From: Desulfobacterales bacterium | GTDB taxonomy: Bacteria > Desulfobacterota > Desulfobulbia > Desulfobulbales > JAGXFP01 | NCBI GenBank assembly: GCA_024637225.1 | Contig: JAGXFP010000061.1 | Span: 1,217 to 65,216 of the forward strand | Direction: 5' to 3' | DNA: 64,000 nucleotides | In this document: in pieces, positions 9,540-59,707 of the stretch | How the letters are laid out: every line of letters begins with the position of its first letter | How positions within the stretch are numbered: the stretch's first letter is position 1 | Notes under the pieces: generated by a model | Database searches by the model: none | Told to the model about the DNA's origin: nothing | The model's input: the letters and a program-made list of their open reading frames with translations, nothing else | Made by a program: the position numbers and the translations under genes

Positions 9540-9543
9540 TATA

Positions 9544-10698: not shown

Positions 10699-10710
10699 AA
10701 TGTTCTCCAA

Positions 10711-12390: not shown

Positions 12391-12434
12391 GCCTTTTCGC
12401 TCTTCAGTGACAACTTGACAATTAGGAAATAGCA

Positions 12435-15765: not shown

Positions 15766-15823
15766 AACACATAAAAGGATTGGCATATCAAGTTAATTCA
15801 GGTGATGAGTACGGGGTGACCAA

Positions 15824-15885
15824 GAGTTCCGGACCAAGAGTTCAGGAAACAGTATATAGAACTGCTTAGTCATTTGGTGAATTCA
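15824..15885. repeat. Solo IS30-end repeat
   Basis: gagttccgg...cagtatatagaactgcttagtcatttggtgaattca. The last 36 nt differ at one position from 16759-16794. Confidence 0.7.
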
Positions 15886-46396: not shown

Positions 46397-47684
46397 GCTT
46401 ATCGTACCTGCCCGAAACCGCCAGACCTTCGCGCTCGTCAACCCGGAGGAGCAGCAGGCCGCCGCCGATAAACATCAAAAGCACGGTCGACATCCCGAGC
46501 CGCTGGGAGCCGAAAACCTCGGTCAATATCCCCAGGATGAACGGTCCCAGAAAGGCGGTGAATTTACCGGAAAAGGCGAAGAAGCCGAAAAACTCGTTTT
46601 CCATGGCCGGCGGGGTCATCCGGGCCAGGAGCGAACGACTGGCCGACTGGTTTGGTCCGGAGAAGATCCCGATCAGGATCCCGGCGAGCCAGAGCCAGAT
46701 TTTTTCGGTCGCAGTCAGGGCGACCAGCGATGCGACAATCAGGCCGCCGATGCTGATCAGGATGGTGGTCTTCCCGCCGAGCCGGTCGTCGCAGTAGCCG
46801 AAGGCGAAGGCGCCCAGCCCGGCCGTGACGTTTAAAACGATGCCGAACAGCATGATCTCCTTGAACGAAAAGCCGAAGGTGCCGGCCGCGTAGATGCCGC
46901 CGAAGGCGAAGATCGTGATCAGGCCGTCATTGTAGATCAGCCGGGCGAGGAGGAAGCGGAAGATCTGCCGGTATCTGCCGATCTGTTTGAAGGTATCGCC
47001 GAGCCTGCGGAAGACGGCGGCGGGGCTGAAGGGGAGCGGCCGGGCGAGGCGCTTTTCCTTGACCAGCAGAAAAAGCGGCAGGCTGAACAGGGCGAACCAG
47101 CCGGCGACCAGCAGGTTGGTCGCCCTGATGTTTTCACCCAGTTCCCGGCTCAGCCCGAACCAGGGCGTTTCCGGGTTGACCATCGAGATCATCGCCAGAA
47201 ACATGGCGATCAGGCCGCCGATATAACCGACCCCCCAGCCGAGGCCGGAGGTCGAGCCGATCTTGTCCGGCGGGGCGATATCGGGCAGGAAGGCGTTATA
47301 AAAGACGCAGCCCAGTTCGAAGGCGATATTGGCGATGGTGAACCAGATCAGGGCCGGGAGCACCTGGCCCGGCAGGATGCGGTAGAGCATGGCGGTGCAG
47401 ATTACCGCGGTCAGGGTGAAAAAGAGCAGATATCTCTTGCGGTGGCCGCCCTGGTCGGCCATGGCCCCGAGAAAGGGCGAGGCCAGGGCCACGGTGAGGC
47501 CGCAGATCGTGATGGCCCGGGACCAGAGCACGGTGCCGGTGATTTCATCGGGGGCGATGGCCTGGGTGAAGTAGGTCGCGTAGATAAAGGTGACGACCAG
47601 GGTGGTGAAGGCGGAATTGGCAAAATCGTACATGGCCCAGCCGAACAGGGCTTTGCGGGCGTACTTGTTCTTCCGGCTTGACAT
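46386..47684 (-). CDS. MFS transporter (UMF1/Atg22-like)
   Basis: About 12 TM segments. N-terminus ...FGWAMYDFANSAFTT. The ATG at 47684 is preceded by GAGGAG. Confidence 0.8.
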   Translation of the reverse strand: MSSRKNKYARKALFGWAMYDFANSAFTTLVVTFIYATYFTQAIAPDEITGTVLWSRAITICGLTVALASPFLGAMADQGGHRKRYLLFFTLTAVICTAMLYRILPGQVLPALIWFTIANIAFELGCVFYNAFLPDIAPPDKIGSTSGLGWGVGYIGGLIAMFLAMISMVNPETPWFGLSRELGENIRATNLLVAGWFALFSLPLFLLVKEKRLARPLPFSPAAVFRRLGDTFKQIGRYRQIFRFLLARLIYNDGLITIFAFGGIYAAGTFGFSFKEIMLFGIVLNVTAGLGAFAFGYCDDRLGGKTTILISIGGLIVASLVALTATEKIWLWLAGILIGIFSGPNQSASRSLLARMTPPAMENEFFGFFAFSGKFTAFLGPFILGILTEVFGSQRLGMSTVLLMFIGGGLLLLRVDEREGLAVSGRYDKHES

Positions 47685-48005
47685 GGTGCGGCTCCTCATC
47701 CTCTCTTGATTGCTGTCACCAACTTAACACAATTGCCGAAGAAATGAACAGGCTAAGGATGATCCGTTTTCAGTCCGCGGCAAGGCCGGCATCTTTATCC
47801 CCGGAGCTCTTCTTACCCCGTTGGCCGTTTTTTTTCGGGGCAAGCCTTTTCCGGCATCGATCCCGCAACCTTCTTGACTTTTGCAGAGTGCATGTAATTA
47901 TGGCAAGATCAAATCTCATCTCTGGAAAAATCCTCCTGCGACAGGTCCCGGACCGGCTGGCAAGACGATCTTGTCCAAGATGCTCAACCCTACCGGAGAA
48001 TACCC

Positions 48006-48407
48006 ATGAAAGAGTTTTTTGCCGCCGCCCTTATCCTGCTTTCGCTCTTCACCTTCGCCGGCTGCTCCCAGGCCGAGGACTCCGCCGATGAAGCCGGGGA
48101 AGTCGTCCCCGGCATCCCGGTCAAAGACACCGTGACCATGGTCGATCTCGGCGCCAAAACCTGCGTCCCCTGCAAGTTGATGGCGCCGATTCTGGAGGAG
48201 CTGAAGGAAGAGTACCGGGGCCGGGCCGAGGTGATCTTCATCGATGTCTGGGACCGGGCCAACGAGGGCAAGGCCCGGGCCTTCAAGGTCATGGCGATCC
48301 CCACCCAGATTTTCTATGATCGACAGGGGAAAGAAACCTTTCGCCATACCGGCTTTTTCGACAAGAAATCAATCGCCGCCAAACTGGACGAGCTTTTGGA
48401 ACAGTGA
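48006..48407 (+). CDS. Thioredoxin-fold lipoprotein (TlpA/periplasmic thiol:disulfide oxidoreductase-like)
   Basis: Lipobox LFTFAGC. CVPC active site. Thioredoxin-fold ...MAIPTQIFYD. Confidence 0.8.
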   Translation: MKEFFAAALILLSLFTFAGCSQAEDSADEAGEVVPGIPVKDTVTMVDLGAKTCVPCKLMAPILEELKEEYRGRAEVIFIDVWDRANEGKARAFKVMAIPTQIFYDRQGKETFRHTGFFDKKSIAAKLDELLEQ

Positions 48408-49105
48408 GCATGGACGATATTCTTTTAACAATCACCGCATGGCTGACCTCCGGTCCAGCCATTGCCTTGCCGGCCGCCTTTCTCTGGGGCATGGTCAGCG
48501 TGCTCCTGTCCCCCTGTCACATCGCCTCGATTCCCCTGATGATCGCCTATGTAGCGGGGCAGAAAATCATCCCGCCGCCGCGCCAGGCGGCCCGTTACGC
48601 CGTCCTCTTCGCCGGCGGCATGTTCCTGACCATTATGGCGATCGGCCTGATCTGCGCCGCCGCCGGGCGGATGCTCGGCGACATCGGCCCGTGGTGGCAG
48701 GCGGCGGTGGGAATCCTCCTGCTCTGGGTAGCCTGGACCCTGTTCAGGCCGCCGCAATGCTCCGCCACCGGCAACGTCCTCAGCCGCTTGAAGATCCAGG
48801 GGGCCCCGGGCGCCTTGGTCCTCGGTCTCGCCTACGGGTTGCTCTCCGGGGTCTGCACCTTCGGCTTCATCACCCCGATCCTCGGGATCATCACCCTGCA
48901 GGAGGAGATTGCCATCGGGATCGCCATGCTGGTCCTCTTCGGGATCGGCCACTGCCTGCCCCTGGTGGTCTGCGGGATCTTTTCCGCCCGGACCATGGAG
49001 CTGCTCCACGGTCATGCCGGTCAAAGGGTGGTGGCCACGATGCGTAAACTGGCGGCGGTGGTGATTGCCGGACTGGGGATCTATTTTCTCCTTGCCGCGT
49101 GGTAA
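48404..49105 (+). CDS. ccdA: CcdA/DsbD-type transmembrane thiol:disulfide electron transporter
   Basis: 233 aa, six TM segments. Membrane-embedded Cys in LLSPCHIASIPL and SGVCTFGF. Start overlaps the thioredoxin stop (GTGA). Confidence 0.75.
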   Translation: MSMDDILLTITAWLTSGPAIALPAAFLWGMVSVLLSPCHIASIPLMIAYVAGQKIIPPPRQAARYAVLFAGGMFLTIMAIGLICAAAGRMLGDIGPWWQAAVGILLLWVAWTLFRPPQCSATGNVLSRLKIQGAPGALVLGLAYGLLSGVCTFGFITPILGIITLQEEIAIGIAMLVLFGIGHCLPLVVCGIFSARTMELLHGHAGQRVVATMRKLAAVVIAGLGIYFLLAAW

Positions 49106-49269
49106 TCACCCGACAAGACTTCACCCTGGCCGCCCCCCCACCCCTAATCCTTGTGATTCCATCCCATTCTGCGACAATTTGCCACATTTTCAACCTTGCC
49201 ACACCGTGGTACATATCCCCTAATTAAAATTTATTTTACCCTCTGCAACACCTCTAGAGAGCCTTTTCA

Positions 49270-51351
49270 GTGATTTTTCTTAAAAACAGGAAGGAGACAT
49301 TCTTGCGATATTATTTTTTGATGATGACGATGACGGTTGCCTTGATGCCACGTTGGTTGCATGGGGCGGAAGTGCAACAGGAACTTGATGAAGTGGTCGT
49401 AACGGCCTCAAGGGTCAGCGAAAAGATTAAAGACACCGCGGTCACCGTTAATGTGCTCTCCGAACCGGAATTGGAGAAGGTGAAGGCCAGGAATCCGGCC
49501 GATTTTCTGAGCCGCCTGCCGGGAATCAACTCCCAGAACCTCGGCGGCGAATCAGAGCTTACCGCCATCAGGGTTCCGACTCATTTCACTAATCCCTATA
49601 CCATCGTCCTGCTGGATGGAGTACCGGCAGCCAGTTACGGATCAGGCAGTTCCAGCCAGTTCAGCCAGCTGAATAGCGACAATATCGCCAGGATTGAGGT
49701 CATTAAGGGTCCAGCCTCCGCTCTCTATGGCAGTAATGCCATCGGTGGCATCATCAACGTCATCACCAAGAACCCCTCCGCCAAGCCGCAAGTCAAAATC
49801 TGGAGCGAATTGGGGGATTACAAGCAGTGGCGCAGCGGCCTCTCCGGCAGCGGCGGCAGTGGCCCTTTCGGGTTCAATCTCGATCTGAGCCGGATTGACA
49901 GCAAAGGCTGGCGCGACAATAATAGACTCGATAAAAAAGCCGCCACGATCAAATCCATCTATACCAACAACGATGCCTCGCTACTTTCATTCAAAATAGA
50001 TCTGCTCAGTTCCGAAAATGAAACGCCCGGCACCTTGAGCGCGGCCGATTTTTACCGGGACTGGCAACACAGCTATCAAACCTTTACCTATAAAAAATCC
50101 AATAAGTTTGCCCCGGCCCTCTCCTACAACCATTACTTTGCGGCCTCGGAGTTCAGTGCCACCCTGGCCCTGCGCGATATCGAAGAAGAAAGCATACCCA
50201 ATTACAGTGTACGCCAGTTGCCCTATGGGCCCACCCCGCGCCCCTATATCGGCAGCAAGACAACCTCCGACAGCCGGGATGTTGACCTGCAACTTTTATA
50301 CAGCCATAATTTCAGCCAGGGCCGCAGCAAGGTCAATTCCGGTCTCGATCTGGTTCGGGGCAGCAATGAAGCCGACAACTACGACCTGGCCGTGACCTAC
50401 GACCCGGTCCAGGACCTGTACACCTCCTACACCATCGGGGCCCTGGCCAAATCATACGATATCACCAGCAAAGTCATCGCGCCCTACCTGCAGCTGGAAA
50501 CTTCCCCCCTTGAAAAACTGCGGTTCAGCGCCGGGGGCCGTTATGACTCCGCGGAATATGAGGTTGATGACCTGTTGGGCGGCGGCACCGGTGGCGACAA
50601 GGAATTCTCCAAATCCAGCCCCAAGGTCGGCCTGACCTACGACATTTCAGCCTCACTGAACGGTTATCTCAGCTACGCGGAAGGCTTCATCGTCCCAACC
50701 ACCAGTCAGTTATGGACCTCCCGTTATGACAACAGTGATCTGGCTCCGGAGAAGGCCAAGAATTATGAGGTCGGCCTGCGGTCAAGTTTCATGCGGAACC
50801 GGTTGAAGGTCGATGGCTCAATCTATGCCATGGATATCACCGACAAAATCGTGGTCGATGCCACTGACACCATGTACATCAATGCCGGCGAGACATCCCA
50901 GGAAGGCGTTGAGCTCATGGCAACATATGCCCCCCTTGCTCTGGCCCGTCTGACCGTGGCCTACACCTATGCCCTTAACAAATATCAGGTTTATAGCACC
51001 GGCGGGATCGACTACAGCGGCAACTACCAGCCCCGTTCTCCCAAACACCATCTCAATGCCAGACTTACCCTGGTTCCCGCCCGGGACCTGGAGGTGGAAC
51101 TGGAGGTTGACGAGATCAGCGCCCAATATGCCGACGACGCCAATCTCCATGAATACAACCGCCCTACTCTGTTAAACCTGCGGGTCGGCTATGCCTGGCA
51201 AAGCTGGTCCGTCTGGGGCCACATCCTAAATCTGACCGATGAAACCTTTGCCGCCTATATAAGCGATGATGCCGCCGACATGAACCTTTATCCCGGCGCC
51301 CCGCGCACGATTTTTGCCGGCCTTTCCTATAGATTCGGAGGAAACAGGTAG
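49270..51351 (+). CDS. TonB-dependent outer-membrane receptor
   Basis: 693 aa. TonB box/plug DEVVVTASR. IEVIKGPASALYGSNAIGGIINVITK. C-terminal beta-barrel ending ...AGLSYRF GGNR. Confidence 0.9.
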   Translation: MIFLKNRKETFLRYYFLMMTMTVALMPRWLHGAEVQQELDEVVVTASRVSEKIKDTAVTVNVLSEPELEKVKARNPADFLSRLPGINSQNLGGESELTAIRVPTHFTNPYTIVLLDGVPAASYGSGSSSQFSQLNSDNIARIEVIKGPASALYGSNAIGGIINVITKNPSAKPQVKIWSELGDYKQWRSGLSGSGGSGPFGFNLDLSRIDSKGWRDNNRLDKKAATIKSIYTNNDASLLSFKIDLLSSENETPGTLSAADFYRDWQHSYQTFTYKKSNKFAPALSYNHYFAASEFSATLALRDIEEESIPNYSVRQLPYGPTPRPYIGSKTTSDSRDVDLQLLYSHNFSQGRSKVNSGLDLVRGSNEADNYDLAVTYDPVQDLYTSYTIGALAKSYDITSKVIAPYLQLETSPLEKLRFSAGGRYDSAEYEVDDLLGGGTGGDKEFSKSSPKVGLTYDISASLNGYLSYAEGFIVPTTSQLWTSRYDNSDLAPEKAKNYEVGLRSSFMRNRLKVDGSIYAMDITDKIVVDATDTMYINAGETSQEGVELMATYAPLALARLTVAYTYALNKYQVYSTGGIDYSGNYQPRSPKHHLNARLTLVPARDLEVELEVDEISAQYADDANLHEYNRPTLLNLRVGYAWQSWSVWGHILNLTDETFAAYISDDAADMNLYPGAPRTIFAGLSYRFGGNR

Positions 51352-51374
51352 TGTTTCCCCTTCCTGACTTGACT

Positions 51375-52424
51375 ATGAAAAGACCGAACTTAAACCGCAG
51401 CCGGACCCTGATCTTCGCCTTGTTCTTGCTTGTGGGGGTGACCCAGGCCAAGGCCCGAGATTTGCCGCCATTACGTCTTTCTCCGGCCCCGGCGGCCAAT
51501 GTTGAAGATTGCGAACAACACGGTCCGCAACCGACCCAAGCTGAGGCCCCCAAAGGCCGCGGCGGCGGCCCCGGCGGCCGACCGGGCCGGAAGGCAGCAC
51601 TGGAATCGGAACATCGCCCCCAACCGATGCGGACCTATGCCTTTAACGAGCATCGCCGCCGAGCCCGGATCGAGGCCTTTGTCAGACGCCCGGATGGCTC
51701 GGTGATTCAGCCGACCCTGCAGCTCGGAGTCAACCCTAACCTCTCTTTCCCTACCCCGATGGGGGAAGGGCCAAGCCATGGGGCCAACAATGTTTATCTA
51801 ATTGAACAGGGCGTCGAAGATCGGGTCCTGGTAGTGCGGATTGCCCAATGGCTGACCATGCACCATAACTGCGGCTGGGGCCATGAGCATAAGTTCGACG
51901 AGCAGCGCACCCGGCCCCAGGCCCTGGAAACCATTCCCCTGGAGATCGTCATCGACGAGCTCTGGGACCCGAATTTCCATGCCAAGGTAACTTCCGGCCA
52001 ACAACTGAAAATTATGGTTTTGCGCCATGGTAAACCATTGGCGGGTGCCAAGGTTCAACTCCAGACCGCCGAAAAATGGGTCAAGGAAGTAATCACCGGT
52101 AAGGATGGCATCGCCTCCCTGCAGTTGATCAAAGATTATTACCCGGCCAAATGGGCGGATTTCCTCCGGACCAAAAGGGCGGAATTCCTGGTAACCGCGT
52201 ACGCTGAGGTTGACGAACCAGGGACCTTCGCGGAACTCCCCTATCAAAGGGTGCGTTATATCTCCACCCTGCCTTGGCAGTATGCTCCGGCCCGGGCAGA
52301 CTATACCTCATACGGCCTGGGACTGCTGATCGGCCTCATGGGCTTTACCCTCACCGGCGGCGGCATCTATTTCTACCGGGAGCGGCGGAAGAAACCCTAC
52401 CAGGGGATTGACCTTGATGGGTGA
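51375..52424 (+). CDS. DUF4198-like periplasmic protein with a C-terminal membrane anchor
   Basis: Signal peptide after the ATG at 51375. Gly/Pro-rich linker. GQQLKIMVLRHGKPLAGAKVQL beta-sandwich pattern typical of DUF4198. C-terminal TM followed by RERRKK. Confidence 0.65.
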   Translation: MKRPNLNRSRTLIFALFLLVGVTQAKARDLPPLRLSPAPAANVEDCEQHGPQPTQAEAPKGRGGGPGGRPGRKAALESEHRPQPMRTYAFNEHRRRARIEAFVRRPDGSVIQPTLQLGVNPNLSFPTPMGEGPSHGANNVYLIEQGVEDRVLVVRIAQWLTMHHNCGWGHEHKFDEQRTRPQALETIPLEIVIDELWDPNFHAKVTSGQQLKIMVLRHGKPLAGAKVQLQTAEKWVKEVITGKDGIASLQLIKDYYPAKWADFLRTKRAEFLVTAYAEVDEPGTFAELPYQRVRYISTLPWQYAPARADYTSYGLGLLIGLMGFTLTGGGIYFYRERRKKPYQGIDLDG

Positions 52425-53415
52425 GATAATGGGCAATTTCCGGAGAGCAATCAATAACACCAGCCTGAGCCGCTTCCGCTTCTATTTTCAAGCCGCTTCT
52501 TTTCTCCTCCTGATCTATGGCGGTTATCTGGCCTTAAATCTCGGCGACCAGCTCCCGACCTTTGCCTGCATCTTCAGCGAACCGCGCGGCGGCTCCTGCT
52601 ATCTCTTCGGCTTGCAGCATCAGATGACCACCCCCTGGACGAGTTATTTATCCGGGCGCGGGATCGGCTTACTCGTCGGGTTTCTGACTTTTATCGCTTT
52701 TTTCATCGTCTTCAACAAGGCCTGGTGCGGCTTTGCCTGCCCCCTGGGGACCATTCAGGACTGGTTGACCGCGCTCCGCGCCAGGTTCAAGATCAGATAT
52801 GCCAACTATGCCGAGCCCACATTTCAAAGACTCAAAAAGATAAAATATATCCTGTTGGCCCTGCTGATTCTGATTCCCATGGCCATCGGCAACTCATTTT
52901 TCGGGCTGCCCAAACTGAATCATGATTTTGGCGTGCCCTTCTGCATGATCTGCCCGGGGCGCACCATCCTGCCGCTCTTCAGCGGCGACTTCTCGCAATT
53001 GGCCCTTGATCTGAGTTCTAAAAGCAAGATGATTCTCACCGCCCTTGGTCTCATGGTCACCGGAATCTTTCTGTCCGGCTCATTCATCAAGAAACGTTTT
53101 TTCTGCCTGTTCTGCCCGATGAGCGCCTTCCATTATATCTTTGCCAATGCCGCTCTTTTGCGATTAAGCAAGGACGCCGGCAAATGCTCCAGGTGCGGCA
53201 ACTGCTATCGAGCCTGTGATGTCGGGATCAGGGCGATTGCCGATGATCTCCAACACAAAAATATCGTCAAGGATGATTGCATGCTGTGTGGCAAATGCGT
53301 GGAGATGTGTCCGGAAGAGGGCTGCCTGCAGGTCAAGTTCCTAGGTCTGCCGATTTATCAATCCACCGCCGAGGGCTTCTTCAAGCGGATGCAGGGGCGT
53401 AACAATGCAAAGTGA
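52408..53415 (+). CDS. NapH/MauN-type membrane polyferredoxin (4Fe-4S binding)
   Basis: TM helices. WCGFACPLGTIQDW motif. C-terminal CSRCGNCYRAC and CMLCGKCVEMCP clusters. The start may instead be at 52417 or 52429. Confidence 0.8.
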   Translation: MTLMGEIMGNFRRAINNTSLSRFRFYFQAASFLLLIYGGYLALNLGDQLPTFACIFSEPRGGSCYLFGLQHQMTTPWTSYLSGRGIGLLVGFLTFIAFFIVFNKAWCGFACPLGTIQDWLTALRARFKIRYANYAEPTFQRLKKIKYILLALLILIPMAIGNSFFGLPKLNHDFGVPFCMICPGRTILPLFSGDFSQLALDLSSKSKMILTALGLMVTGIFLSGSFIKKRFFCLFCPMSAFHYIFANAALLRLSKDAGKCSRCGNCYRACDVGIRAIADDLQHKNIVKDDCMLCGKCVEMCPEEGCLQVKFLGLPIYQSTAEGFFKRMQGRNNAK

Positions 53416-54682
53416 TGCTGATAAAAGATTTGCCAGAATGCAAAAGGCCACCGCCCTTCACCTGGCCATGGAAGGTGAGGAAACCCTGCAACACCTGACG
53501 GAATTTTCGGACAATCCCAAGGCCATGGACTATTTTTACGACCTGTTCCGGAATCTTTACAAAAACGGCCACAAGCTCCCGACGGACAAAAAAGTAATCG
53601 GCACCATGTGCCTGCAGGTGCCGGATGAACTGATCTATGCCGCAGGCGCGGTGCCCATGCGAATGTGCAGCGGCGCCTATGCCTATGAGCAGGTAGGGGC
53701 CGAGTTCATGCCGGCCAAATCCTGCCCGGTGGTCAAGGCCACTACCGGCATGCTCCATGTCAATCAGGCCCTGTGGGGCGAGGCCGTGGCCTCGGTGGTG
53801 CTCCCCACCACCTGTGATCAAAAAAAGAAGTGCGGCGAAATGCTGAAAGAGATGGGCTACCCGGTCTACATTCTGGAGATGCCCTCCAGCAAGGACAGCG
53901 AGGGGGCCAGGTTCTACTGGCAGGAATCGATCAAGAAATTCACCCTCGATCTGCAGAAGATCACCGGTAACAAAATTACTTCCGGCAAACTCCAGACCGT
54001 AATTGCCGACATGGCCGAATGTTCGCGCCTGTTCCGTAAGCTTAACGACCTGCGTAAATCAAAAACCCCGCTGATCTTCGGCAAGGATATTTTCCTGGTG
54101 ACCAGCGCCTATTTTATTGACGAGATGGCGAGCTGGCGGCAGGCCGTTCGCCAACTCATTGAAGAACTGGAAGTATGGCGGCAGAATGATATCGCCATCA
54201 CCAACCGGCAGGCCCCCCGCATGCTGTTGACCGGTTCCCCGCCCATCTTTCCCAACCTCAAAGTGCCGATTCTGGTCGAACAGGCCGGCGGGATCATTGT
54301 GGCCGACGAGGTCTGCTCCTCAAACCGGTTGCTGCACGATGCCGTGGCCTATGACGAAGCCAATCTTAATGACATGGCGGCGGCCCTGGCCGACCGCTAT
54401 CTCAAGCCTTGCACCTGCCCCTGCCTCACTCCCAATACCGATCGCAATCGGAAACTTGCGGAACTGGTCAAAAGTCATGCGGTAGAAGGCGTGATCTATC
54501 AGGCATTTTCCGGCTGTTTGCCGTACGAGATGGAGCAAAAGCAGATCAGCAATACCTTGAGTAAGGCCGGGGTGCCCATGCTCTATCTGGAAACGGATTA
54601 CAGCAGCGAAGACCTGGGCCAGTTATCAACCAGGGTTGAAGCCTTTATCGAATCGATCAAGGCCAGAAGGAGGAAGAAATAA
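53405..54682 (+). CDS. HGD-D family protein (2-hydroxyacyl-CoA dehydratase / double-cubane cluster protein-like), single subunit
   Basis: 425 aa with many conserved-looking Cys contexts (GTMCLQVPDE, AKSCPVV, PTTCDQKKKCGE, EVCSSN, KPCTCPC, FSGCLPY). Overall BcrC/BadD/HgdB-like layout. Confidence 0.75.
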   Translation: MQSDADKRFARMQKATALHLAMEGEETLQHLTEFSDNPKAMDYFYDLFRNLYKNGHKLPTDKKVIGTMCLQVPDELIYAAGAVPMRMCSGAYAYEQVGAEFMPAKSCPVVKATTGMLHVNQALWGEAVASVVLPTTCDQKKKCGEMLKEMGYPVYILEMPSSKDSEGARFYWQESIKKFTLDLQKITGNKITSGKLQTVIADMAECSRLFRKLNDLRKSKTPLIFGKDIFLVTSAYFIDEMASWRQAVRQLIEELEVWRQNDIAITNRQAPRMLLTGSPPIFPNLKVPILVEQAGGIIVADEVCSSNRLLHDAVAYDEANLNDMAAALADRYLKPCTCPCLTPNTDRNRKLAELVKSHAVEGVIYQAFSGCLPYEMEQKQISNTLSKAGVPMLYLETDYSSEDLGQLSTRVEAFIESIKARRRKK

Positions 54683-55497
54683 TGCACTATTTTGCCGGAA
54701 TTGATATTGGCTCCACCACCATCAAGATCGTCTTGACCGATGCCGGCGACCGAATCGTCGCCCAGGACTGCCAGCCCACCGGCTGTCATTTTCACAAAAA
54801 CACCCTGACTGCCTTTGAAAGTCTCCTGGCCCGGGCGGAACTCACCCGTCATGACGTGGCATACATATTTTCAACCGGTTATGGACGCAAGCTCTTCAAG
54901 GAGGCGGATGAATCAATCAGCGAAATCTCCGCCAATGCTATGGGCGCCAATAAGGCCGCCGAAAAATATGGCACGATCAAGACCATTATTAACATCGGCG
55001 GCCAAGACCTTAAGGTCATTGGTCTGGACGAAGACGGCCACGTTAAAAACTTTACCATGAACGATAAATGCGCCGCCGGCACCGGCCGTTTCCTGGAAAT
55101 GACCGCCCGCAACCTGGAAATGGATGTGGCGCAACTGGGCGCTTGTCATAAGCAGGCCCGGGGGGTGCCGTTGACCATCAACAGTACCTGCACGGTCTTT
55201 GCCGAATCGGAGATCATCGGTCTGCTGGCCAACGGCAACGGCAAGGAGGAACTGGTGGCGGGCGTTCATTACTCCATCGCCCGGCGAATCAGTCGTCTGG
55301 CCAAAAGAGTCGGCATTGAAGGCACGGTCTTTTTTGATGGCGGTCCGGCCCTAAACGAAGGGCTGGTTGAAGCCCTGGAGATCGAGCTGATGCGCAAGGT
55401 GGTGGTGCCAGAATTCCCGCAGACGACCACGGCCCTGGGTGCCGCGTTGATCGCCAGAGAAACCTTTTGTTATCTGGGAGAAGCCGTCAATGACTGA
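54682..55497 (+). CDS. BcrAD/BadFG/HgdC-type ATP-dependent activase (electron-injecting ATPase)
   Basis: AGIDIGSTTIKIV ASKHA phosphate-1 motif. Cluster Cys contexts NDKCAAGTGRFLE and NSTCTVFAESE. ATAATG overlap with the previous gene. Confidence 0.88.
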   Translation: MHYFAGIDIGSTTIKIVLTDAGDRIVAQDCQPTGCHFHKNTLTAFESLLARAELTRHDVAYIFSTGYGRKLFKEADESISEISANAMGANKAAEKYGTIKTIINIGGQDLKVIGLDEDGHVKNFTMNDKCAAGTGRFLEMTARNLEMDVAQLGACHKQARGVPLTINSTCTVFAESEIIGLLANGNGKEELVAGVHYSIARRISRLAKRVGIEGTVFFDGGPALNEGLVEALEIELMRKVVVPEFPQTTTALGAALIARETFCYLGEAVND

Positions 55498-55672
55498 CGG
55501 CGTCGTAAAAAAATCACGATCTCCCGCGTCGCAAGGACTTTTTGCTCACTCGCCATGCCGGATGTATGGCCTCGCTCGCAAAAACACCCTGCCCATTGCA
55601 TATCAAACTTTTTATTTAGCCATCCCAAAGCTTTTTTATCTACGTCCAAACTTGTTATCCGCGAGGAAATAA

Positions 55673-56296
55673 ATGGTTGAATTTGATGCGGCCGGTCTCT
55701 TTACCCTGGGTCTGGTCTATGGCACCACGGTCTGCAGTCTGACCTGCCTTTCGTATCTTGGCCCCTATCTGTTGGGGACCGGCGATGGTTTTCGGGACGG
55801 GGTGCTAAGCATTCTCGCCTTCGGCCTCGGCAAGATCTGCTGCTACGTATTCCTCGGGGGGTTGGCGGGCTACCTCGGCCAGAAACTGAGCTATAGCCCG
55901 GCCCATTCCTGGGCGATGGGCCTGATTTTAATCGGGGTGGCCCTCTCCATGCCTTTGGCAACCAAGCGTGGTTGCCGAAAAAAGTGTCGGCCGGGGGGTA
56001 AACGGGCCTCACTCCTGACCCTGGGCGCGGCCACCAGCCTGATACCCTGTCCGCCGGTACTCGCCATACTGGCTCTGGCGGCCGGCCAAGGCTCAATGGT
56101 TACCGGCATGGGCTTCGGCCTCGTTTACGGGCTGGGCATTATCATCTCCCCCCTGCTGGTGATCGGGGGGAGCCTGGCCCTGGTTTCCCAGAAACTCCGC
56201 CAGGAAGCAAAAAGTTTCATGCCCTACATCCAGAGTCTGGCCATGACGATCATGATTCTGATGGTCGTCAATATTTTCCATGGGGGCATCCGCTAA
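55673..56296 (+). CDS. DsbD_2/CcdA-like membrane protein with paired Cys motifs
   Basis: 207 aa, about six TM segments. VCSLTCLSYLGP and LIPCPP motifs, plus a cytoplasmic CRKKC loop. Confidence 0.65.
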   Translation: MVEFDAAGLFTLGLVYGTTVCSLTCLSYLGPYLLGTGDGFRDGVLSILAFGLGKICCYVFLGGLAGYLGQKLSYSPAHSWAMGLILIGVALSMPLATKRGCRKKCRPGGKRASLLTLGAATSLIPCPPVLAILALAAGQGSMVTGMGFGLVYGLGIIISPLLVIGGSLALVSQKLRQEAKSFMPYIQSLAMTIMILMVVNIFHGGIR

Positions 56297-56721
56297 TGGA
56301 CTGGCTCAAATACGCAATCGACTACGGGATCATCGGCCTGCTGCTGCTGATGAGTTTTGTGGTGGTCAGTGTCGGGGTGGAACGCTATCTGCTCCTTAAA
56401 AAAATAAGAATCGAGGATTTTATCGACAGGAGAAGTCTGGAACTTGAATTGAGCAGCAAGATGCACCTGATCGCCACCATCGGCAGCAGCGCCCCCTATA
56501 TCGGCTTGCTGGGCACCGTTTTAGGGATCATGTTGACCTTTTACTCCATGGGCAAGAGCGGTTTCATGGATACCAACAAGATCATGGTCGGCCTGGCCCT
56601 GGCCCTGAAGGTCACCGCCGTCGGCCTCCTGGTCGCCATTCCGGCGGTCATCATCTACAACCTGCTGCTCAGGAAAATCAAGGTCCTGATCATGCAATGG
56701 GAGATCCGCGATGGACGATAG
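56296..56721 (+). CDS. exbB: MotA/TolQ/ExbB proton-channel protein
   Basis: 141 aa. ...IGSSAPYIGLLGTVLGIM... hallmark. Confidence 0.88.
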   Translation: MDWLKYAIDYGIIGLLLLMSFVVVSVGVERYLLLKKIRIEDFIDRRSLELELSSKMHLIATIGSSAPYIGLLGTVLGIMLTFYSMGKSGFMDTNKIMVGLALALKVTAVGLLVAIPAVIIYNLLLRKIKVLIMQWEIRDGR

Positions 56722-57091
56722 CGGGTTTGAATCGATAAATATCATTCCGCTGGTTGATGTGATGCTGGTGCTTTTAACCATCGTCCTGACCACCTCGACC
56801 TTTATTGCGGCCGGCGCCATCCCGCTGCAATTGCCCATGGCGGCGAACGCCACTACCGCCCCCTTAAAATCCGCAACCGTGGTGATCGACAAAGGGGGCC
56901 GGCTCTATCTGAACTCGCAATTGGCCAGCCTCGAAAAACTGGGACGGGACTTAATGGGGATCGACAGGGAAACGCCGATCCTGATTCGGGCCGACAAAGC
57001 GATCGCCCTTGAGGTTTTTGTGGAAGTGATGGATCTGGTGAAAGGCTTAGGCTTTACCAAGGTAAGCCTGCAGACCGAGGCCGCAAGATGA
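56711..57091 (+). CDS. exbD: ExbD/TolR biopolymer transport protein
   Basis: 126 aa. INIIPLVDVMLVLL TM with the conserved Asp. Confidence 0.88.
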   Translation: MDDSGFESINIIPLVDVMLVLLTIVLTTSTFIAAGAIPLQLPMAANATTAPLKSATVVIDKGGRLYLNSQLASLEKLGRDLMGIDRETPILIRADKAIALEVFVEVMDLVKGLGFTKVSLQTEAAR

Positions 57092-57837
57092 ACAACAACG
57101 TTAAGGGTCTCGGTATCTCATTGGTTTTGCATGGGGCTATCCTCTATTCGTTGTCCCTAACCACTCTGCTGCCGGTAGCCGAGATACCCAAGGTCATAGA
57201 TCTCAGTCGGGTCGAACACCTTGGCGCTCGCCACCAAGAACCTGTCAAAAGACCCCCGGCTTTGCGGGCGCCCTCCGTGCTTAAGCCGGCAGCAAAAACC
57301 CCAAGAGCTCCCATGGTTGCGAAAACCACGGTGCCGATCTTAGCTGAAGAGCCTATTGCCGAGCAAGAGCTGCCCCCGGAACCATTGAACGAGGCGCCGG
57401 TCATGGCGGAAAAGATCAGCGAGGAAGAGGTATATGAGGCCCAGGTCGCAACCTTGGCTGAAACAGAAACCACCACCGCTCCGCCCCCGGCAACGGAAAG
57501 CGCTGCCCAAGCCATAAACTCAACCAGCTCCGACCTCGCCGACGTGGGTTTAAGCAAAGGGCTCTACGTTGAGGCAAACTTTCACCACATTAAGGACAAT
57601 ATCCAAAAAGGTATCACGTATCCGCGCATTGCCCGGCAAATGGGCTGGGAAGGTAAGGTCATCGTCAGTTTTGTGGTTGGCAGGGATGGCACCGTTCAGG
57701 ACGTGCATATTGTCGAGAGTTCCGGTTTTGCCGCTCTGGACAAAAACGCCATCGCCACCATCAAAAAGGCGGCCCCCTTCCCCTGCCCGCTGGTCAGGGC
57801 TGAACTGGTGGTCCCGGTCATTTATCGGCTGGCGTGA
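57088..57837 (+). CDS. tonB: Energy transducer TonB
   Basis: N-terminal TM, Pro/Ala-rich spacer, C-terminal YPRIARQMGWEGKVIVSFVV...G.V..V.IV.SSG...LD.A. Confidence 0.88.
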   Translation: MNNNVKGLGISLVLHGAILYSLSLTTLLPVAEIPKVIDLSRVEHLGARHQEPVKRPPALRAPSVLKPAAKTPRAPMVAKTTVPILAEEPIAEQELPPEPLNEAPVMAEKISEEEVYEAQVATLAETETTTAPPPATESAAQAINSTSSDLADVGLSKGLYVEANFHHIKDNIQKGITYPRIARQMGWEGKVIVSFVVGRDGTVQDVHIVESSGFAALDKNAIATIKKAAPFPCPLVRAELVVPVIYRLA

Positions 57838-58045: not shown

Positions 58046-58489
<444 letters not shown>

Positions 58490-58584
58490 CGTTCATCCCA
58501 TAGGCACGGGACGCCGTGCCCCTAAGTGTGTGGTGGTGGTTCGGGAATGGGTGGCCGTTGTTTATAAAGGTGGTCCTGATCCCC

Positions 58585-59673
58585 TCACGGCTCGCATGAC
58601 AGATGGCAGACCCCGGTGGGGGTTTCCCTGGCGTAAGGGAAATATTTCTTCTTGATGCGCAGGGCGACGCCGACCAGGCCGATCAGGACCGGCACCTCGA
58701 CCAGGGGTCCGATCACCGCCGCGAAGGCCACCCCGGAATCGATGCCGAAGACGGCGATGGCCACGGCGATGGCCAGCTCGAAGTTGTTGGAGGCGGCGGT
58801 AAAGGAGAGGGTGGTGGCCTGCTCGTAGGTGGCCCCGACCTTCCTCGACATGAAAAACGAGACCAGGAACATCACCAGGAAATAAATGGTCAGCGGCAGG
58901 GCGATCCGCAGCACATCCAGGGGCAGCTGGACGATGTATTCGCCCTTCAGGGAGAACATCACCAGGATGGTGAAGAGCAGGAAAACCAGGGTCAGGGGGC
59001 TCAGTTTCGGCAGCAGTTTTTCCCGATACCACGCCTCGCCCTTGCTCTTCAGGCCGATAAAGCGGGTCAGCATCCCGGCGAGGAAGGGGATGCCCAGATA
59101 GATGAAGACGCTCTCGGCGATCTGGCCCATGGAGATATCGACCAGGGCTCCTTCGATCCCCAGCCAGCCGGGCAGGATGGTCAGGAAAAACCAGGCATAG
59201 AGCGGGAAGAACAGGACCTGAAAGATCGAGTTGAAGGCGACCAGGCCGGCACAGTATTCGGTGTCGCCGGCGGCCAGGTCGTTCCAGACGATGACCATGG
59301 CGATGCAGCGGGCCAGGCCGATCAGGATCAGGCCGACCATGTAGTCGTGATGACCCGAGAGAAAGGCCACGGCCAGGCCGAACATCAGGACCGGGCCGAT
59401 CAGCCAGTTCTGGACCAGGGAGAGGGCAAGCACCTTGAAATTGCGGAAGACCTCATGGAGTTTTTCGTAGCGGACCTTGGCCAGGGGCGGATACATCATC
59501 AAAATCAGGCCGACGGCGATGGGGATATTAGTGGTCCCCACCTGGAAGGAGTTGATCAGGTCCTTGACCCCCGGCAGGAAATAACCGGCCATGACCCCGG
59601 CCAACATGGCCAGGAAGATCCACAGGGTCAGAAAGCGATCGAGGAATGAGAGTTTTTTCAGTTGGGCCGGCAT
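58585..59673 (-). CDS. acr3: ACR3-family arsenite efflux permease
   Basis: About 10 TM segments. ...[12 protein letters not shown]... motif. The ATG at 59673 leaves 34 nt after the arsR stop. Confidence 0.88.
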
Positions 59674-59707
59674 GGCGTTCTCCGTTTTGCTGATTTTTCC
59701 GGAAGGT

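What the first reader, a model, noticed from the sequence alone, without database searches (positions are those of the whole stretch)
48006..57837. TonB-dependent uptake operon coupled to redox machinery instead of an ABC importer
Eleven co-directional genes are packed with overlapping or abutting stop/start junctions: 48404-48407, 51351, 52408-52424, 53405-53415, 54682, 56296, 56711-56721 and 57088-57091. That packing indicates a single translationally coupled operon. In order the genes encode a thioredoxin-fold lipoprotein (CVPC), CcdA, a TonB-dependent receptor, a membrane-anchored DUF4198-like protein, a NapH-type membrane polyferredoxin, a single HGD-D family protein, an HgdC/BcrAD-type ATP-dependent activase, a DsbD_2-like membrane protein, and ExbB, ExbD and TonB.

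Classical TonB loci pair the receptor with a periplasmic binding protein and an ABC permease/ATPase, and none is present here. Instead the locus has three different ways to move electrons or thiol equivalents across the inner membrane, plus a cytoplasmic ATP-driven low-potential electron injector. I infer that the imported substrate is reductively processed during or after import. The substrate could be a metal chelate, since DUF4198 is typical of Ni/Co uptake loci, or possibly a metalloid. I do not know of a described system with this composition.
Basis: partly seen in the sequence, partly recalled or inferred. Interest (0 to 1): 0.72.

Follow-up and report, generated by a model that had tools for sequence, protein, structure and literature searches.

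The report
TonB uptake operon with double-cubane reductase
This is a real gene cluster, shared by many bacteria of oxygen-poor habitats, that joins an outer-membrane import machine to a rare ATP-driven iron-sulfur reductase whose natural job is unknown; it most likely helps cells obtain a scarce trace metal, with copper the best guess.

Summary
The lone HGD-D protein is a double-cubane cluster protein (DCCP): NCBIfam NF040772, PDB 6ENO/7YYL at E 1e-68, all seven cluster cysteines present. An activase follows it.

There are three blocks, not one coupled string. Thioredoxin-CcdA (48006-49105) is absent from all 79 related loci. The conserved unit starts at the receptor gene (49270), behind a 164-nt spacer holding a conserved RegA-type box (49170-49188).

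The core is: membrane-anchored DUF4198-fold protein, NapH-type polyferredoxin, DCCP, activase, DsbD_2 protein. It recurs in this order across Desulfobulbales, Nitrospirota, Gamma-, Beta- and Alphaproteobacteria and Spirochaetia (183 hits among GTDB species genomes). A TonB-dependent receptor usually precedes it. No ABC importer is ever present.

A variant without DCCP/activase exists, as do fusions of the DUF4198-like domain with a NapH-like membrane domain and a NosL copper-chaperone domain.

Best reading: redox-regulated, TonB-dependent acquisition of a sulfide-loving trace metal (copper most likely, Ni/Co/Zn possible), with ATP-driven reductive processing. The substrate and the DCCP's exact role are inferred. 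I found no published description.

The parts
48006..48407 (+). Thioredoxin-fold lipoprotein (lipobox FAGC, active site CVPC). An accessory of this genome, not part of the conserved module.
   Evidence: Pfam Thioredoxin 45 bits. No homologue in any of 79 related loci. A promoter-like site lies at 47874-47901.
48404..49105 (+). CcdA-type thiol-disulfide membrane transporter, overlapping the thioredoxin gene by 4 nt. An accessory of this genome.
   Evidence: Pfam DsbD_TM 37.5 bits. Absent from the related loci.
49170..49188 (+). Conserved 19-nt box TGCGACAATTTGCCACATT, 82-100 nt before the receptor start codon. Probably the binding site of a RegA/ActR/PrrA-type redox response regulator.
   Evidence: It is the only match in the window; 0.05 are expected by chance at up to 3 mismatches. 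The same box (up to 2 mismatches) lies upstream of the receptor gene in L002, L005, L006, L008-L010, L014, L036, L071, L073 and D. alkaliphilus. RegB/RegA genes are adjacent in L007, L008, L036 and in 20 of 120 metagenome loci carrying the box. It fits the RegR box GNGRCRTTNNGNCGC (PMC5506826).
49270..51351 (+). TonB-dependent outer-membrane receptor (693 aa) with TonB box DEVVVTA. First gene of the conserved operon.
   Evidence: Pfam Plug 80 bits and barrel 144 bits. Nearest solved structures are YncD, PqqU and BtuB. A receptor lies directly upstream of the core in 33 of 49 loci with enough flank. No conserved Cys/His/Met cluster.
51351..52424 (+). Periplasmic DUF4198-fold metal-capture protein. 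It has a signal peptide, a low-complexity linker, a C-terminal transmembrane anchor and a conserved cytoplasmic RERRKKP tail. The likely true start is ATG 51375.
   Evidence: AlphaFold2 model with pLDDT 83. Foldseek best hits are Zcp with Cu/Zn/Co (E 7e-10) and a Ni-bound DUF4198. Invariant motifs are ESEHRP, HG, HHxCGWGH and NFH. The family is small: 214 representatives in 1.84 billion.
52408..53415 (+). NapH-type membrane polyferredoxin with 4 transmembrane helices. On the cytoplasmic side are CX3CP, CX2CP and two 4Fe-4S motifs. Four conserved cysteines (C54, C64, C179, C182) lie in the predicted periplasmic loops.
   Evidence: Pfam Fer4_5 and Fer4_10. NapH models score 75-79 bits, below cut-off. 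Conservation, topology.
53405..54682 (+). Double-cubane cluster protein (DCCP), a single HGD-D-fold subunit.
   Evidence: NCBIfam NF040772 at 353.5 bits (cut-off 350). PDB 7YYL/6ENO at E 1e-68 with all 7 cluster cysteines aligned. 52-87% identical across phyla.
54682..55497 (+). ATP-dependent reductase/activase of the HgdC/HadI/DCCP-R family. It carries the cluster-bridging cysteines in DKCAAGTG and STCTVF.
   Evidence: Pfam BcrAD_BadFG 183 bits; TIGR00241 233 bits. PDB 4EHT 2e-62, 1HUX 1e-50, 7YYL chain E 1e-41.
55498..55672 (.). 175-nt spacer specific to this lineage. Function unknown.
   Evidence: In the close relatives L002 and L005 the DsbD_2 gene abuts the activase gene. The spacer is not repeated in the window or in other loci.
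55673..56296 (+). DsbD_2-family membrane protein with 6 transmembrane helices and conserved cysteines C21, C25 (helix 1) and P125-C126 (helix 4). Candidate inner-membrane permease for a soft metal, or a thiol-disulfide relay.
   Evidence: Pfam DsbD_2 63 bits. Conservation, topology. No solved relative.
56296..56721 (+). ExbB (short ExbB2 type).
   Evidence: TIGR02805 161.8 bits (cut-off 135).
56711..57091 (+). ExbD.
   Evidence: Pfam ExbD 86 bits.
57088..57837 (+). TonB.
   Evidence: TIGR01352 TonB C-terminal domain 70.6 bits.

Best explanation
The conserved unit is a nine-gene operon (49270-57837). It is a TonB-dependent acquisition system for a scarce, sulfide-loving trace metal species. Copper is the best single candidate; Ni, Co or Zn are not excluded. 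It is used under oxygen-poor, reduced conditions.

Shown:
- The receptor with ExbB-ExbD-TonB is an outer-membrane import machine.
- Gene 4 is a membrane-anchored periplasmic protein of the DUF4198 metal-capture fold with an invariant His/Cys/Glu site.
- Gene 6 is a double-cubane cluster protein and gene 7 its ATP-driven reductase.
- These genes, with a NapH-type polyferredoxin and a Cys-lined DsbD_2 protein, form one conserved module with no ABC importer.
- A RegA-type box precedes the operon.

Inferred:
- The receptor brings the metal, probably as a complex, into the periplasm, where the DUF4198-like protein captures it.
- The NapH-like protein is the membrane redox hub. It links its cytoplasmic Fe-S domain, in contact with activase/DCCP, to four periplasmic cysteines next to the capture protein.
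- The activase/DCCP pair spends ATP to deliver very low-potential electrons. These free the metal from its ligand, or change its state, during or just after passage.
- The DsbD_2 protein is the route across the inner membrane. It takes the place of the missing ABC importer.
- A RegB/RegA-type redox sensor switches the operon on when the cell is reduced or anoxic, which also protects the oxygen-labile DCCP.
- In this genome an upstream thioredoxin-CcdA pair probably keeps the periplasmic cysteines reduced. A redoxin gene does so in the Sedimenticola variant.
For: - Identity of the parts.
- Conservation of order D4198-like, NapH-like, DCCP, activase, DsbD_2 in 79 loci from at least 8 bacterial classes. 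The scan found 183 hits among 185,579 species genomes.
- A receptor lies directly upstream in 33 of 49 loci. Flanking genes are otherwise heterogeneous and no ABC importer recurs.
- Metal: DUF4198 fold with Cu-, Zn-, Co- and Ni-bound structural relatives, and invariant ESEH, HHxCGWGH and NFH motifs.
- Small Cys/His-rich periplasmic proteins sit inside some clusters (L074, L018).
- The variant without DCCP has a divergent ArsR/SmtB-family regulator.
- Copper, direct clues: protein P0447 fuses a Fer4_5 membrane domain, a NosL domain and the D4198-like domain inside a complete cluster. NosL genes lie near the cluster in L007 and L013.
- Copper, indirect clues: MopE-type Cu-binding motif in two flank proteins. 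Genes next to the same box in metagenomes include 20 receptors of 71, DUF1775/YcnI, a cupredoxin and 3 multicopper oxidases.
- Physical coupling of the capture domain with a NapH-like membrane protein: fusions P0402 and P0447.
- Regulation.
- From knowledge, not tested here: CcoG, another Fer4_5 membrane polyferredoxin, is a cupric reductase. NosR belongs to the same family. NosA/OprC are anaerobically induced copper receptors. UreH/SodT nickel permeases belong to the DsbD_2 family.
Against: - No experiment or expression data bears on the system.
- The receptor has no conserved Cys/His/Met site like OprC. Its nearest solved relatives carry organic cofactors (PqqU, BtuB).
- No metal-responsive box (Fur, Zur, NikR, ModE) and no riboswitch was found.
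- Reducing Cu(II) to Cu(I) does not need a low-potential ATP-driven reductase, so the chemical need for a DCCP is unexplained.
- A variant works without DCCP/activase, so these may serve another step.
- DsbD_2 could be a thiol relay rather than a permease. It is paired with a redoxin in Sedimenticola, like CcdA with TlpA.
- About ten gammaproteobacterial loci have no adjacent receptor.
- The copper clues come from a minority of loci.
Confidence: 0.45

Rival explanations
1. Outward electron flow with no inner-membrane import. ATP-energised electrons from activase/DCCP pass through the NapH-like polyferredoxin to the periplasm. There they reduce a TonB-imported substrate held by the DUF4198-like protein, for example delivering reduced copper to periplasmic cuproenzymes. 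DsbD_2, with thioredoxin or redoxin, is only a thiol-reducing relay.
For: - Four conserved cysteines lie in the predicted periplasmic loops of the NapH-like protein.
- DsbD_2 carries the Cys-in-helix-1 and PC-in-helix-4 pattern of CcdA-type relays.
- DsbD_2 is followed by a redoxin in Sedimenticola, and a thioredoxin-CcdA pair precedes the operon here.
- NosL, which is fused in P0447, acts in the periplasm.
Against: - A DCCP used as a pure electron pump, with no substrate of its own, has no precedent.
- The DCCP is the most conserved protein of the module (52-87% identity), which suggests a constrained active site.
- The topology is only a hydropathy prediction.
Confidence: 0.2
2. The substrate is a chalcogen or metalloid (elemental or mineral selenium, tellurium, arsenic-sulfur species or sulfur). 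It is imported and reduced at very low potential, for example Se(0) to selenide for selenoprotein synthesis.
For: - A preprint reports that DCCPs of family NF040772 occur almost only in genomes with the selenophosphate synthetase SelD, and next to a transporter with metal-binding selenocysteines (10.1101/2022.07.06.499078).
- Thiol-redox accessories are present.
- The variant's ArsR-family regulator has an atypical Cys pattern.
- NifS-type desulfurases lie nearby in D. alkaliphilus and S. thiotaurini.
- A PhsA-like molybdoenzyme operon shares the box in L008.
- Such a reduction would justify a low-potential reductase (from knowledge).
Against: - The capture protein has a His-rich cation-type site and a DUF4198 fold.
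- NosL fusions point to copper.
- The adjacent ars operon in the window is not conserved elsewhere.
- No selenium gene recurs in the flanks.
Confidence: 0.1
3. The receptor imports an organic small molecule or cofactor, which the DCCP reduces in the cytoplasm as a nutrient, electron acceptor or salvaged cofactor. The DUF4198-like protein acts as a non-metal binding protein.
For: - The receptor's nearest solved relatives are PqqU, YncD and BtuB, and it lacks conserved metal ligands.
- DCCPs reduce small unsaturated molecules in vitro (background restated in the preprint read; titles of PMC9351452 and PMC7317905).
- Regulation is by redox state, not by a metal.
Against: - Gene 4 has invariant His/Cys/Glu motifs.
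- NosL fusions exist.
- No catabolic genes recur nearby.
- A variant exists without the reductase.
Confidence: 0.1
4. The DCCP/activase pair is merely adjacent to a TonB locus and is functionally unrelated to it.
For: Some loci lack an adjacent receptor, and a variant lacks DCCP/activase.
Against: - The DCCP and activase genes sit between the NapH-like and DsbD_2 genes in the same order in 79 loci from distant phyla, with overlapping or abutting junctions.
- All 79 loci recovered for this DCCP clade show the module or a contig-truncated part of it (L056 and L077 slightly rearranged, L030 with an extra NapH-DCCP pair). No alternative context was seen in the best 80 of 183 hits.
Confidence: 0.03

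Closest known systems
Double-cubane cluster protein DCCP with its reductase DCCP-R (Carboxydothermus hydrogenoformans; PDB 6ENO, 7YYL)
   Same: Gene 6 aligns over its full length at E 1e-68 with all seven cluster cysteines. Gene 7 matches DCCP-R, HgdC and HadI. The logic is the same: an ATP-driven reductase next to a single HGD-D-fold subunit.
   Different: The characterised system is soluble, its physiological substrate is unknown, and it has no reported membrane or transport partners. Here the pair is embedded between a membrane polyferredoxin and a DsbD_2 protein inside a TonB operon. The score is only just above the NF040772 cut-off, so this is a divergent branch.
TonB-dependent uptake coupled to an inner-membrane reductase instead of (or before) an ABC importer, such as FoxB/PepSY-type siderophore reductases often encoded with DUF4198 proteins (from knowledge)
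   Same: A receptor plus a periplasmic DUF4198-type protein plus a membrane redox protein, giving reductive release of the metal.
   Different: The redox protein here is a NapH-type Fe-S protein, not a di-haem PepSY protein. An ATP-driven DCCP is added. No Fur box was found.
CcoG/FixG cupric reductase and the NosR/NapH family of Fer4_5 membrane polyferredoxins (from knowledge)
   Same: Fer4_5 CXnCP motifs with two cytoplasmic 4Fe-4S clusters on a polytopic membrane protein. The family is linked to copper enzymes. An Ig-like periplasmic domain is associated: FixG_C in CcoG, and the D4198-like domain fused in P0402/P0447.
   Different: There is no FixG_C or NosR flavin domain. The NapH models score far below cut-off (75-79 vs 213-234 bits). 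No NapG/NapAB or NosZ genes are adjacent. Four conserved periplasmic cysteines are present.
Zcp and other DUF4198 periplasmic metal-capture proteins (PMC12663993; PDB 9MHL, 9MHM, 9MHN, 9GCB)
   Same: Same fold by Foldseek (E 7e-10, TM-score about 0.6 on the target). Periplasmic location and His-based metal binding.
   Different: No detectable sequence similarity, and the Pfam score is below cut-off. Gene 4 has a membrane anchor with a conserved cytoplasmic tail and a different, richer motif set that includes a cysteine. Zcp is soluble and works with ZnuABC.
FtrABCD iron uptake (Bordetella/Brucella), with the polyferredoxin FtrD (from knowledge)
   Same: A metal uptake system that includes a NapH-like membrane polyferredoxin and no ABC importer.
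   Different: There is no Ftr1-type permease, P19 or cupredoxin here. Electron flow in Ftr is thought to be oxidative. Ftr has no receptor and no DCCP.
SAO (selenocysteine-assisted organometallic) locus with neighbouring DCCPs (preprint 10.1101/2022.07.06.499078)
   Same: An independent genomic link between DCCP/activase and an uptake transporter with soft-metal-binding residues.
   Different: SAO uses an ABC importer, selenoproteins and a MerB-like lyase in Clostridia and other anaerobes. None of those genes is present here.

Membership tests
Double-cubane cluster protein (NCBIfam NF040772) | Score above the curated cut-off and full-length match to the solved DCCP | tested here: met
   353.5 bits vs cut-off 350. 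7YYL/6ENO at E 1e-68 over residues 37-419.
Double-cubane cluster protein (NCBIfam NF040772) | Seven conserved cysteines that ligate the 8Fe-9S cluster | tested here: met
   C69, C88, C107, C137, C304, C338 and C371 align with the cysteines of 7YYL and are invariant in 18 homologues.
Double-cubane cluster protein (NCBIfam NF040772) | Single HGD-D subunit (no alpha/beta pair) with an adjacent ASKHA-type ATP-dependent reductase | tested here: met
   There is one HGD-D gene, followed by the activase with a 1-nt overlap.
Double-cubane cluster protein (NCBIfam NF040772) | ATP-dependent reduction of small molecules at the cluster | not testable with these tools
   Needs anaerobic biochemistry.
2-hydroxyacyl-CoA dehydratase / class I benzoyl-CoA reductase | Two different HGD-D-type subunits forming a heterodimer | tested here: not met
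   There is only one HGD-D gene in the window cluster and in the related loci. The specific models score far below cut-off.
TonB-dependent transport system | Receptor with Plug and 22-strand barrel domains and a TonB box, plus ExbB, ExbD and TonB | tested here: met
   The TonB box DEVVVTA was read directly from the sequence.
Classical receptor + periplasmic binding protein + ABC importer locus | Cluster A binding protein, permease and ATPase genes | tested here: not met
   None in the cluster or as a recurrent neighbour. The two ABC_tran hits in the flanks belong to MacB-type efflux systems.
DUF4198 (PF10670) / Zcp-type metal-capture proteins | Pfam gathering score | tested here: not met
   23.4 bits vs 34, over residues 196-259 only. 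No PDB sequence match.
DUF4198 (PF10670) / Zcp-type metal-capture proteins | Two-domain beta-sandwich fold of Zcp | tested here: met
   Foldseek E 7e-10 to 9MHM/9MHL and 1e-5 to 9GCB; the model has pLDDT 83.
DUF4198 (PF10670) / Zcp-type metal-capture proteins | Histidine-based metal site | tested here: inconclusive
   Invariant H80, H135, H163, H164, C166, H170 and H202 (mature numbering). Their spatial clustering and equivalence to Zcp H29/H31/H142 could not be checked.
NapH (quinol dehydrogenase subunit of periplasmic nitrate reductase) | Score above the NapH model cut-off, with nap partners (NapG, NapAB) | tested here: not met
   78.8 and 75 bits vs cut-offs of 234 and 213. No nap genes nearby. 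The 4-helix, 2xCXnCP, 2x4Fe-4S architecture is shared.
CcoG/FixG cupric reductase | Fer4_5 + Fer4_18 + FixG_C domains, in a cco/fix context | tested here: not met
   Only Fer4_5 and generic Fer4 domains were found. There is no FixG_C domain and no cco genes.
DsbD_2 (PF13386) | Pfam gathering score and a 6-helix core with conserved cysteines | tested here: met
   63.4 bits vs 24.9. Six predicted helices; C21, C25 and P125-C126 are conserved. Whether it is a permease or a thiol relay was not resolved.
RegB/RegA (ActS/ActR, PrrB/PrrA) regulon | A RegR/PrrA-like box upstream, with the cognate regulator genes linked to the box | tested here: inconclusive
   The box fits GNGRCRTTNNGNCGC at 9 of 11 specified positions. 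reg-like genes lie next to the box in L007, L008, L036 and in 20 of 120 metagenome loci. The L008 kinase and regulator score below the NCBIfam cut-offs (225 vs 350; 188 vs 250). No binding assay was possible.

The most novel reading that the evidence does not exclude
This module gives the double-cubane cluster protein its first physiological setting. In this reading an ATP-driven, very low-potential reductase is wired through a NapH-type membrane polyferredoxin to a TonB-dependent receptor and a periplasmic capture protein. Together they form a new, ABC-independent class of 'reductive' importers. Such importers would let anaerobes and microaerophiles pull copper, or another sulfide-locked metal or chalcogenide, out of otherwise inaccessible complexes in sulfidic habitats.
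Probability: 0.3. Interest if true: 0.85.

Novelty: new variant of a known kind. Interest (0 to 1): 0.72.

Why it matters
The natural substrate and role of double-cubane cluster proteins have been open since their discovery. These enzymes are related in their chemistry to nitrogenase.

This cluster ties one well-defined DCCP clade to a specific cellular process with cultured hosts: Desulfurivibrio alkaliphilus, D. dismutans and Azonexus caeni. Sedimenticola carries the variant without DCCP. That makes the question directly testable.

If the metal reading is right, it reveals how sulfur- and iron-oxidisers, sulfur disproportionators, methanotrophs and anammox relatives obtain trace metals that sulfide makes almost insoluble. 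It also shows that TonB-dependent uptake can be completed without an ABC importer.

The conserved RegA-type box in front of many receptor genes also suggests that a redox two-component system governs a set of outer-membrane importers.

Tried and rejected
- Rfam, whole window at gathering thresholds: no riboswitch or other RNA family.
- Scans of 31 upstream regions for Fur, Zur, NikR and ModE consensus boxes: only weak scattered Fur-like matches and nothing conserved.
- Sigma-54 reading of the box: spacing does not fit (by inspection).
- Promoter/terminator scan: counts no higher than in shuffles, and no convincing internal terminator.
- Repeat search in the cluster: only chance-level repeats. 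The 175-nt spacer is not a repeated element.
- Conserved metal ligands in the receptor: none.
- Apparent fusion P0215 (D4198-like + NapH-like): rejected as a frameshift artefact, because the middle of the protein is out of frame. Genuine fusions were found later (P0402, P0447).
- Sequence searches of PDB with gene 4 (as a profile) and with DsbD_2: nothing usable.
- Expression data: the source is a cold-spring metagenome.
- Flank enrichment: three batches of neighbouring ORFs scanned against Pfam showed no dominant family. One attempt failed on a size limit.
- The 120 metagenome loci with the box contain no copy of the DCCP module. They therefore inform on the regulon only.
- Literature searches for the gene combination, for DCCP with TonB, for YjiM/YjiL and for D. 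alkaliphilus found no description.
- The adjacent ars operon as part of the system: rejected. It is on the opposite strand and not conserved in other loci.

Full report
OBSERVATION. Profile searches confirm the identities:
- a thioredoxin-fold lipoprotein (lipobox FAGC, CVPC motif)
- CcdA
- a TonB-dependent receptor (Plug + barrel, TonB box DEVVVTA)
- a protein with a weak DUF4198 match (23.4 bits, below the cut-off of 34)
- a NapH-like membrane polyferredoxin (Fer4_5 plus two 4Fe-4S motifs)
- one HGD-D protein
- a BcrAD_BadFG activase
- a DsbD_2 protein
- ExbB (ExbB2 type), ExbD and TonB

The eight overlapping or abutting junctions are real. Two of them depend on the longest possible ORF. Gene 4 probably starts at ATG 51375, where a signal peptide begins and homologues align. 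The NapH-like gene probably starts at ATG 52417 or 52429. Both junctions remain tight.

Rfam finds nothing in the window. The terminator scan finds nothing convincing inside the cluster. No ABC importer or binding-protein gene is in or next to the cluster.

WHAT THE ENZYME PAIR IS. The single HGD-D protein is a double-cubane cluster protein (DCCP).
- It passes the curated NCBIfam model NF040772 (353.5 bits, cut-off 350).
- Its best solved relatives are the Carboxydothermus DCCP entries 7YYL and 6ENO (E 1e-68).
- All seven cluster cysteines are aligned: C69, C88, C107, C137, C304, C338, C371. They are invariant in 18 homologues.

The next gene matches the activators HadI and HgdC and the DCCP reductase. 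It is not a 2-hydroxyacyl-CoA dehydratase or a benzoyl-CoA reductase, because those need two different HGD-D subunits. The physiological substrate of DCCPs is unknown (preprint 10.1101/2022.07.06.499078; PMC9351452 and PMC7317905 listed).

GENE 4. With an alignment of 37 homologues, AlphaFold2 gives a confident model (pLDDT 83).
- Its best structural matches are the periplasmic zinc-capture protein Zcp solved with Cu, Zn or Co (E 7e-10), and a Ni-bound DUF4198 protein (Zcp paper PMC12663993).
- There is no sequence-level similarity.
- The family has invariant motifs ESEHRP, HG, HHxCGWGH and NFH. It also has a C-terminal transmembrane helix and a conserved cytoplasmic tail RERRKKP.
- It is a small family: 214 representatives at E <= 0.001 among 1.84 billion.

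MEMBRANE PROTEINS. Hydropathy and the positive-inside rule, combined with conservation, give the following picture.
- The NapH-like protein has four helices. CX3CP, CX2CP and two 4Fe-4S motifs lie on the cytoplasmic side. Four conserved cysteines (C54, C64, C179, C182) lie in the periplasmic loops.
- The DsbD_2 protein has six helices, with conserved C21 and C25 in helix 1 and P125-C126 in helix 4.

This pattern fits either a soft-metal path or a CcdA-like thiol relay. These data do not decide between them.

CONSERVATION. A scan of one genome per GTDB species with a DCCP alignment matched 224 stretches. Of these, 183 encode a relative, and the best 80 gave 79 loci.
- Mapping the eleven window proteins onto them shows the order D4198-like, NapH-like, DCCP, activase, DsbD_2 in essentially every locus, wherever the contig reaches far enough (clustering).
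- The hosts are Desulfobulbales, Nitrospirota, Gammaproteobacteria (Thiodiazotropha, Sedimenticolaceae, Thiohalomonadaceae, Methylomonas), Betaproteobacteria (Rhodocyclaceae, Azonexus, Thiobacillus, Sulfuricella, Gallionellaceae, Sideroxydans), Alphaproteobacteria, Spirochaetia, Nitrospinia and Krumholzibacteriia. A Planctomycetota hit appears.
- The DCCP is 52-87% identical across these groups. The receptor is only 24-76% identical.
- A receptor gene lies directly upstream in 33 of 49 loci with enough flank. In several more it is separated by one small gene or oriented divergently.
- About ten gammaproteobacterial loci have none nearby.
- ExbB-ExbD-TonB follow the core in Desulfobulbales and Nitrospirota and are elsewhere in most Proteobacteria.
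- Thioredoxin and CcdA were found in none of the 79 loci. That includes L005, whose DCCP is 85% identical and which has 5.9 kb of upstream sequence.
- Flanking genes are heterogeneous, and no ABC importer recurs.
- Desulfurivibrio alkaliphilus AHT2 carries the same nine-gene operon, followed by nifU-nifS.

The conserved unit starts at 49270.

VARIANTS AND FUSIONS. A paralogous cluster without DCCP and activase exists in L063 and L077, beside the DCCP form.
- In Sedimenticola thiotaurini it reads receptor, DUF4198-like, NapH-like, DsbD_2, ExbB, ExbD, TonB-like, redoxin. A divergent ArsR/SmtB-family regulator with an atypical cysteine pattern sits upstream.
- So the fixed scaffold is capture protein + NapH-like + DsbD_2, and the DCCP pair is an insertion between the last two.
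- Two genuine fusions link the capture domain physically to a NapH-like membrane domain. P0402 is Fer4_5 membrane domain + D4198-like. P0447 is Fer4_5 + NosL + D4198-like. P0447 lies inside a complete cluster with a separate NapH-like gene, DCCP, activase and DsbD_2 (L205).
- An earlier apparent fusion (P0215) is a frameshift artefact.
- NosL-family genes also lie near the cluster in L007 and L013.
- Small Cys/His-rich periplasmic proteins occur inside the clusters of L074 and L018.

REGULATION. No Fur, Zur, NikR or ModE box is conserved. Instead a 19-nt box, TGCGACAATTTGCCACATT (49170-49188), lies 82-100 nt before the receptor start.
- It is the only match in the window; 0.05 are expected by chance.
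- It recurs upstream of the receptor gene in at least twelve related loci from Desulfobulbales and Betaproteobacteria, including D. alkaliphilus.
- In L008 the same box precedes a TorD-like/PhsA-like/Fe-S operon, and a RegB/RegA-like pair lies next to the cluster. reg-like genes also flank L007 and L036.
- A metagenome scan returned 120 loci with the box. In 20 of them a RegA-like gene lies beside it.
- Of 71 ORFs just downstream of the box, 20 are TonB-dependent receptors. Others include C_GCAxxG_C_C proteins, a DUF1775/YcnI protein and a cupredoxin. Three multicopper oxidases are among the neighbours.
- The box fits the published RegR box GNGRCRTTNNGNCGC at 9 of 11 specified positions. Variants ending GYCGC fit better (PMC5506826).

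I conclude that the operon is probably controlled by a RegB/RegA-type redox system. This rests on association, not on a binding test.

MECHANISM.
Shown:
- an outer-membrane TonB import machine
- a membrane-anchored periplasmic protein of a metal-capture fold with an invariant His/Cys/Glu site
- a NapH-type membrane Fe-S protein
- a DCCP with its ATP-driven reductase
- a Cys-lined DsbD_2 protein
- all conserved as one module without an ABC importer

Inferred:
- The receptor imports a scarce, sulfide-loving metal species, and the anchored protein captures it.
- The NapH-like protein connects cytoplasmic Fe-S chemistry with periplasmic cysteines.
- The activase/DCCP pair injects ATP-energised electrons to release or transform the metal.
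- DsbD_2 carries the metal inward.
- Thioredoxin-CcdA (here) or a redoxin (Sedimenticola) keeps the periplasmic thiols reduced.

Copper is the best candidate for four reasons. First, the NosL fusions and NosL neighbours. Second, the copper-flavoured genes sharing the box. Third, the Cu-bound Zcp structure. Fourth, from knowledge, the roles of CcoG and NosR in copper biology and the anaerobic induction of the NosA/OprC receptors. The DUF4198 and DsbD_2 (UreH/SodT) families equally allow Ni, Co or Zn.

Weak points:
- Cu(II) reduction does not need a DCCP.
- The receptor lacks an OprC-type site and resembles cofactor importers.
- The variant works without the DCCP.
- There is no expression or experimental evidence.

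Rivals are outward electron delivery with no inner-membrane import, a chalcogen or metalloid substrate, an organic substrate, and mere adjacency. The last is contradicted by the conservation.

COMPARISON AND NOVELTY. Each part belongs to a known family. The assembly resembles receptor-plus-membrane-reductase systems (FoxB type), FtrABCD with its polyferredoxin, and CcoG/NosR copper biology. It also echoes the reported genomic link between DCCPs and the SAO transporter. None of these contains this combination.

NCBIfam has no model for gene 4 or for this DsbD_2 protein. Nine literature searches found no description. I rate it a new variant of a known kind (TonB-dependent metal acquisition with a membrane reductase). 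The added feature is that it supplies a first physiological context for a DCCP.

The interest is high because cultured hosts make the hypothesis testable. It remains a comparative-genomics inference.

Noticed in passing
window 7812-14362: A low-GC island (GC 0.41-0.43 against 0.55-0.64 around it) carries two anti-phage systems. One is a type II CBASS on the - strand: E1-E2/Cap2 at 7812-9539, oligonucleotide cyclase at 9544-10710, patatin phospholipase effector at 10711-11874. The other is AbiL on the + strand: AbiLi at 12435-13703 and AbiLii at 13703-14362.
   Followed up: partly
window 58046-60055 (- strand): An arsenic resistance operon converges on the tonB gene: ArsR with the canonical CVC motif (59708-60055), an ACR3 arsenite efflux carrier (58585-59721) and a low-molecular-weight ArsC (58046-58489). 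It is not found next to the module in other loci, so it is probably unrelated.
   Followed up: partly
window 55498-55672: A 175-nt spacer lies between the activase and DsbD_2 genes. It is absent in the closest relatives (L002, L005), where the two genes abut. It is not a repeated element and has no family match.
   Followed up: partly
window 49170-49188; L008 5137-5155, 5763-5781, 15066-15084; metagenome loci L081-L200: A RegA/RegR-like box occurs widely in metagenomes. It lies beside RegB/RegA-like genes (apparent autoregulation) and in front of many TonB-dependent receptor genes. This suggests a redox two-component regulon of outer-membrane importers.
   Followed up: partly
L008 5137-5590 vs 15066-15830: A partial duplication: the box plus a truncated copy of the TorD-like chaperone gene is repeated upstream of the receptor operon.
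   Followed up: no
L201 5206-13086 (Sedimenticola thiotaurini CP011412), L063 16020-20865, L077 666-5550: A paralogous cluster without DCCP/activase reads receptor, DUF4198-like, NapH-like, DsbD_2, ExbB, ExbD, TonB-like, redoxin. In Sedimenticola it has a divergent ArsR/SmtB-family regulator (ELCVFDL plus a C-terminal Cys). It coexists with the DCCP form in L063 (Sedimenticolaceae) and L077 (Sulfuricellaceae).
   Followed up: partly
L027 17838-19067, L074 11917-13146, L112 466-1668: A BNR/sialidase-like beta-propeller protein with conserved CxCC and CPH motifs recurs next to receptor genes of these clusters and downstream of the box. Its function is unknown.
   Followed up: no
window 43490-47699 (- strand): Upstream neighbours are a 983-aa AMP-ligase/acyltransferase fusion (Aas-like by eye) and a 437-aa major-facilitator transporter. 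They are divergent from the thioredoxin gene. They were not profiled.
   Followed up: no
L203 14634-16696 (D. alkaliphilus), L014 14077-16139: nifU and a nifS-type cysteine desulfurase follow the tonB gene on the same strand in the two Desulfurivibrio genomes. This could link to Fe-S supply for the DCCP, or it could be coincidence.
   Followed up: no
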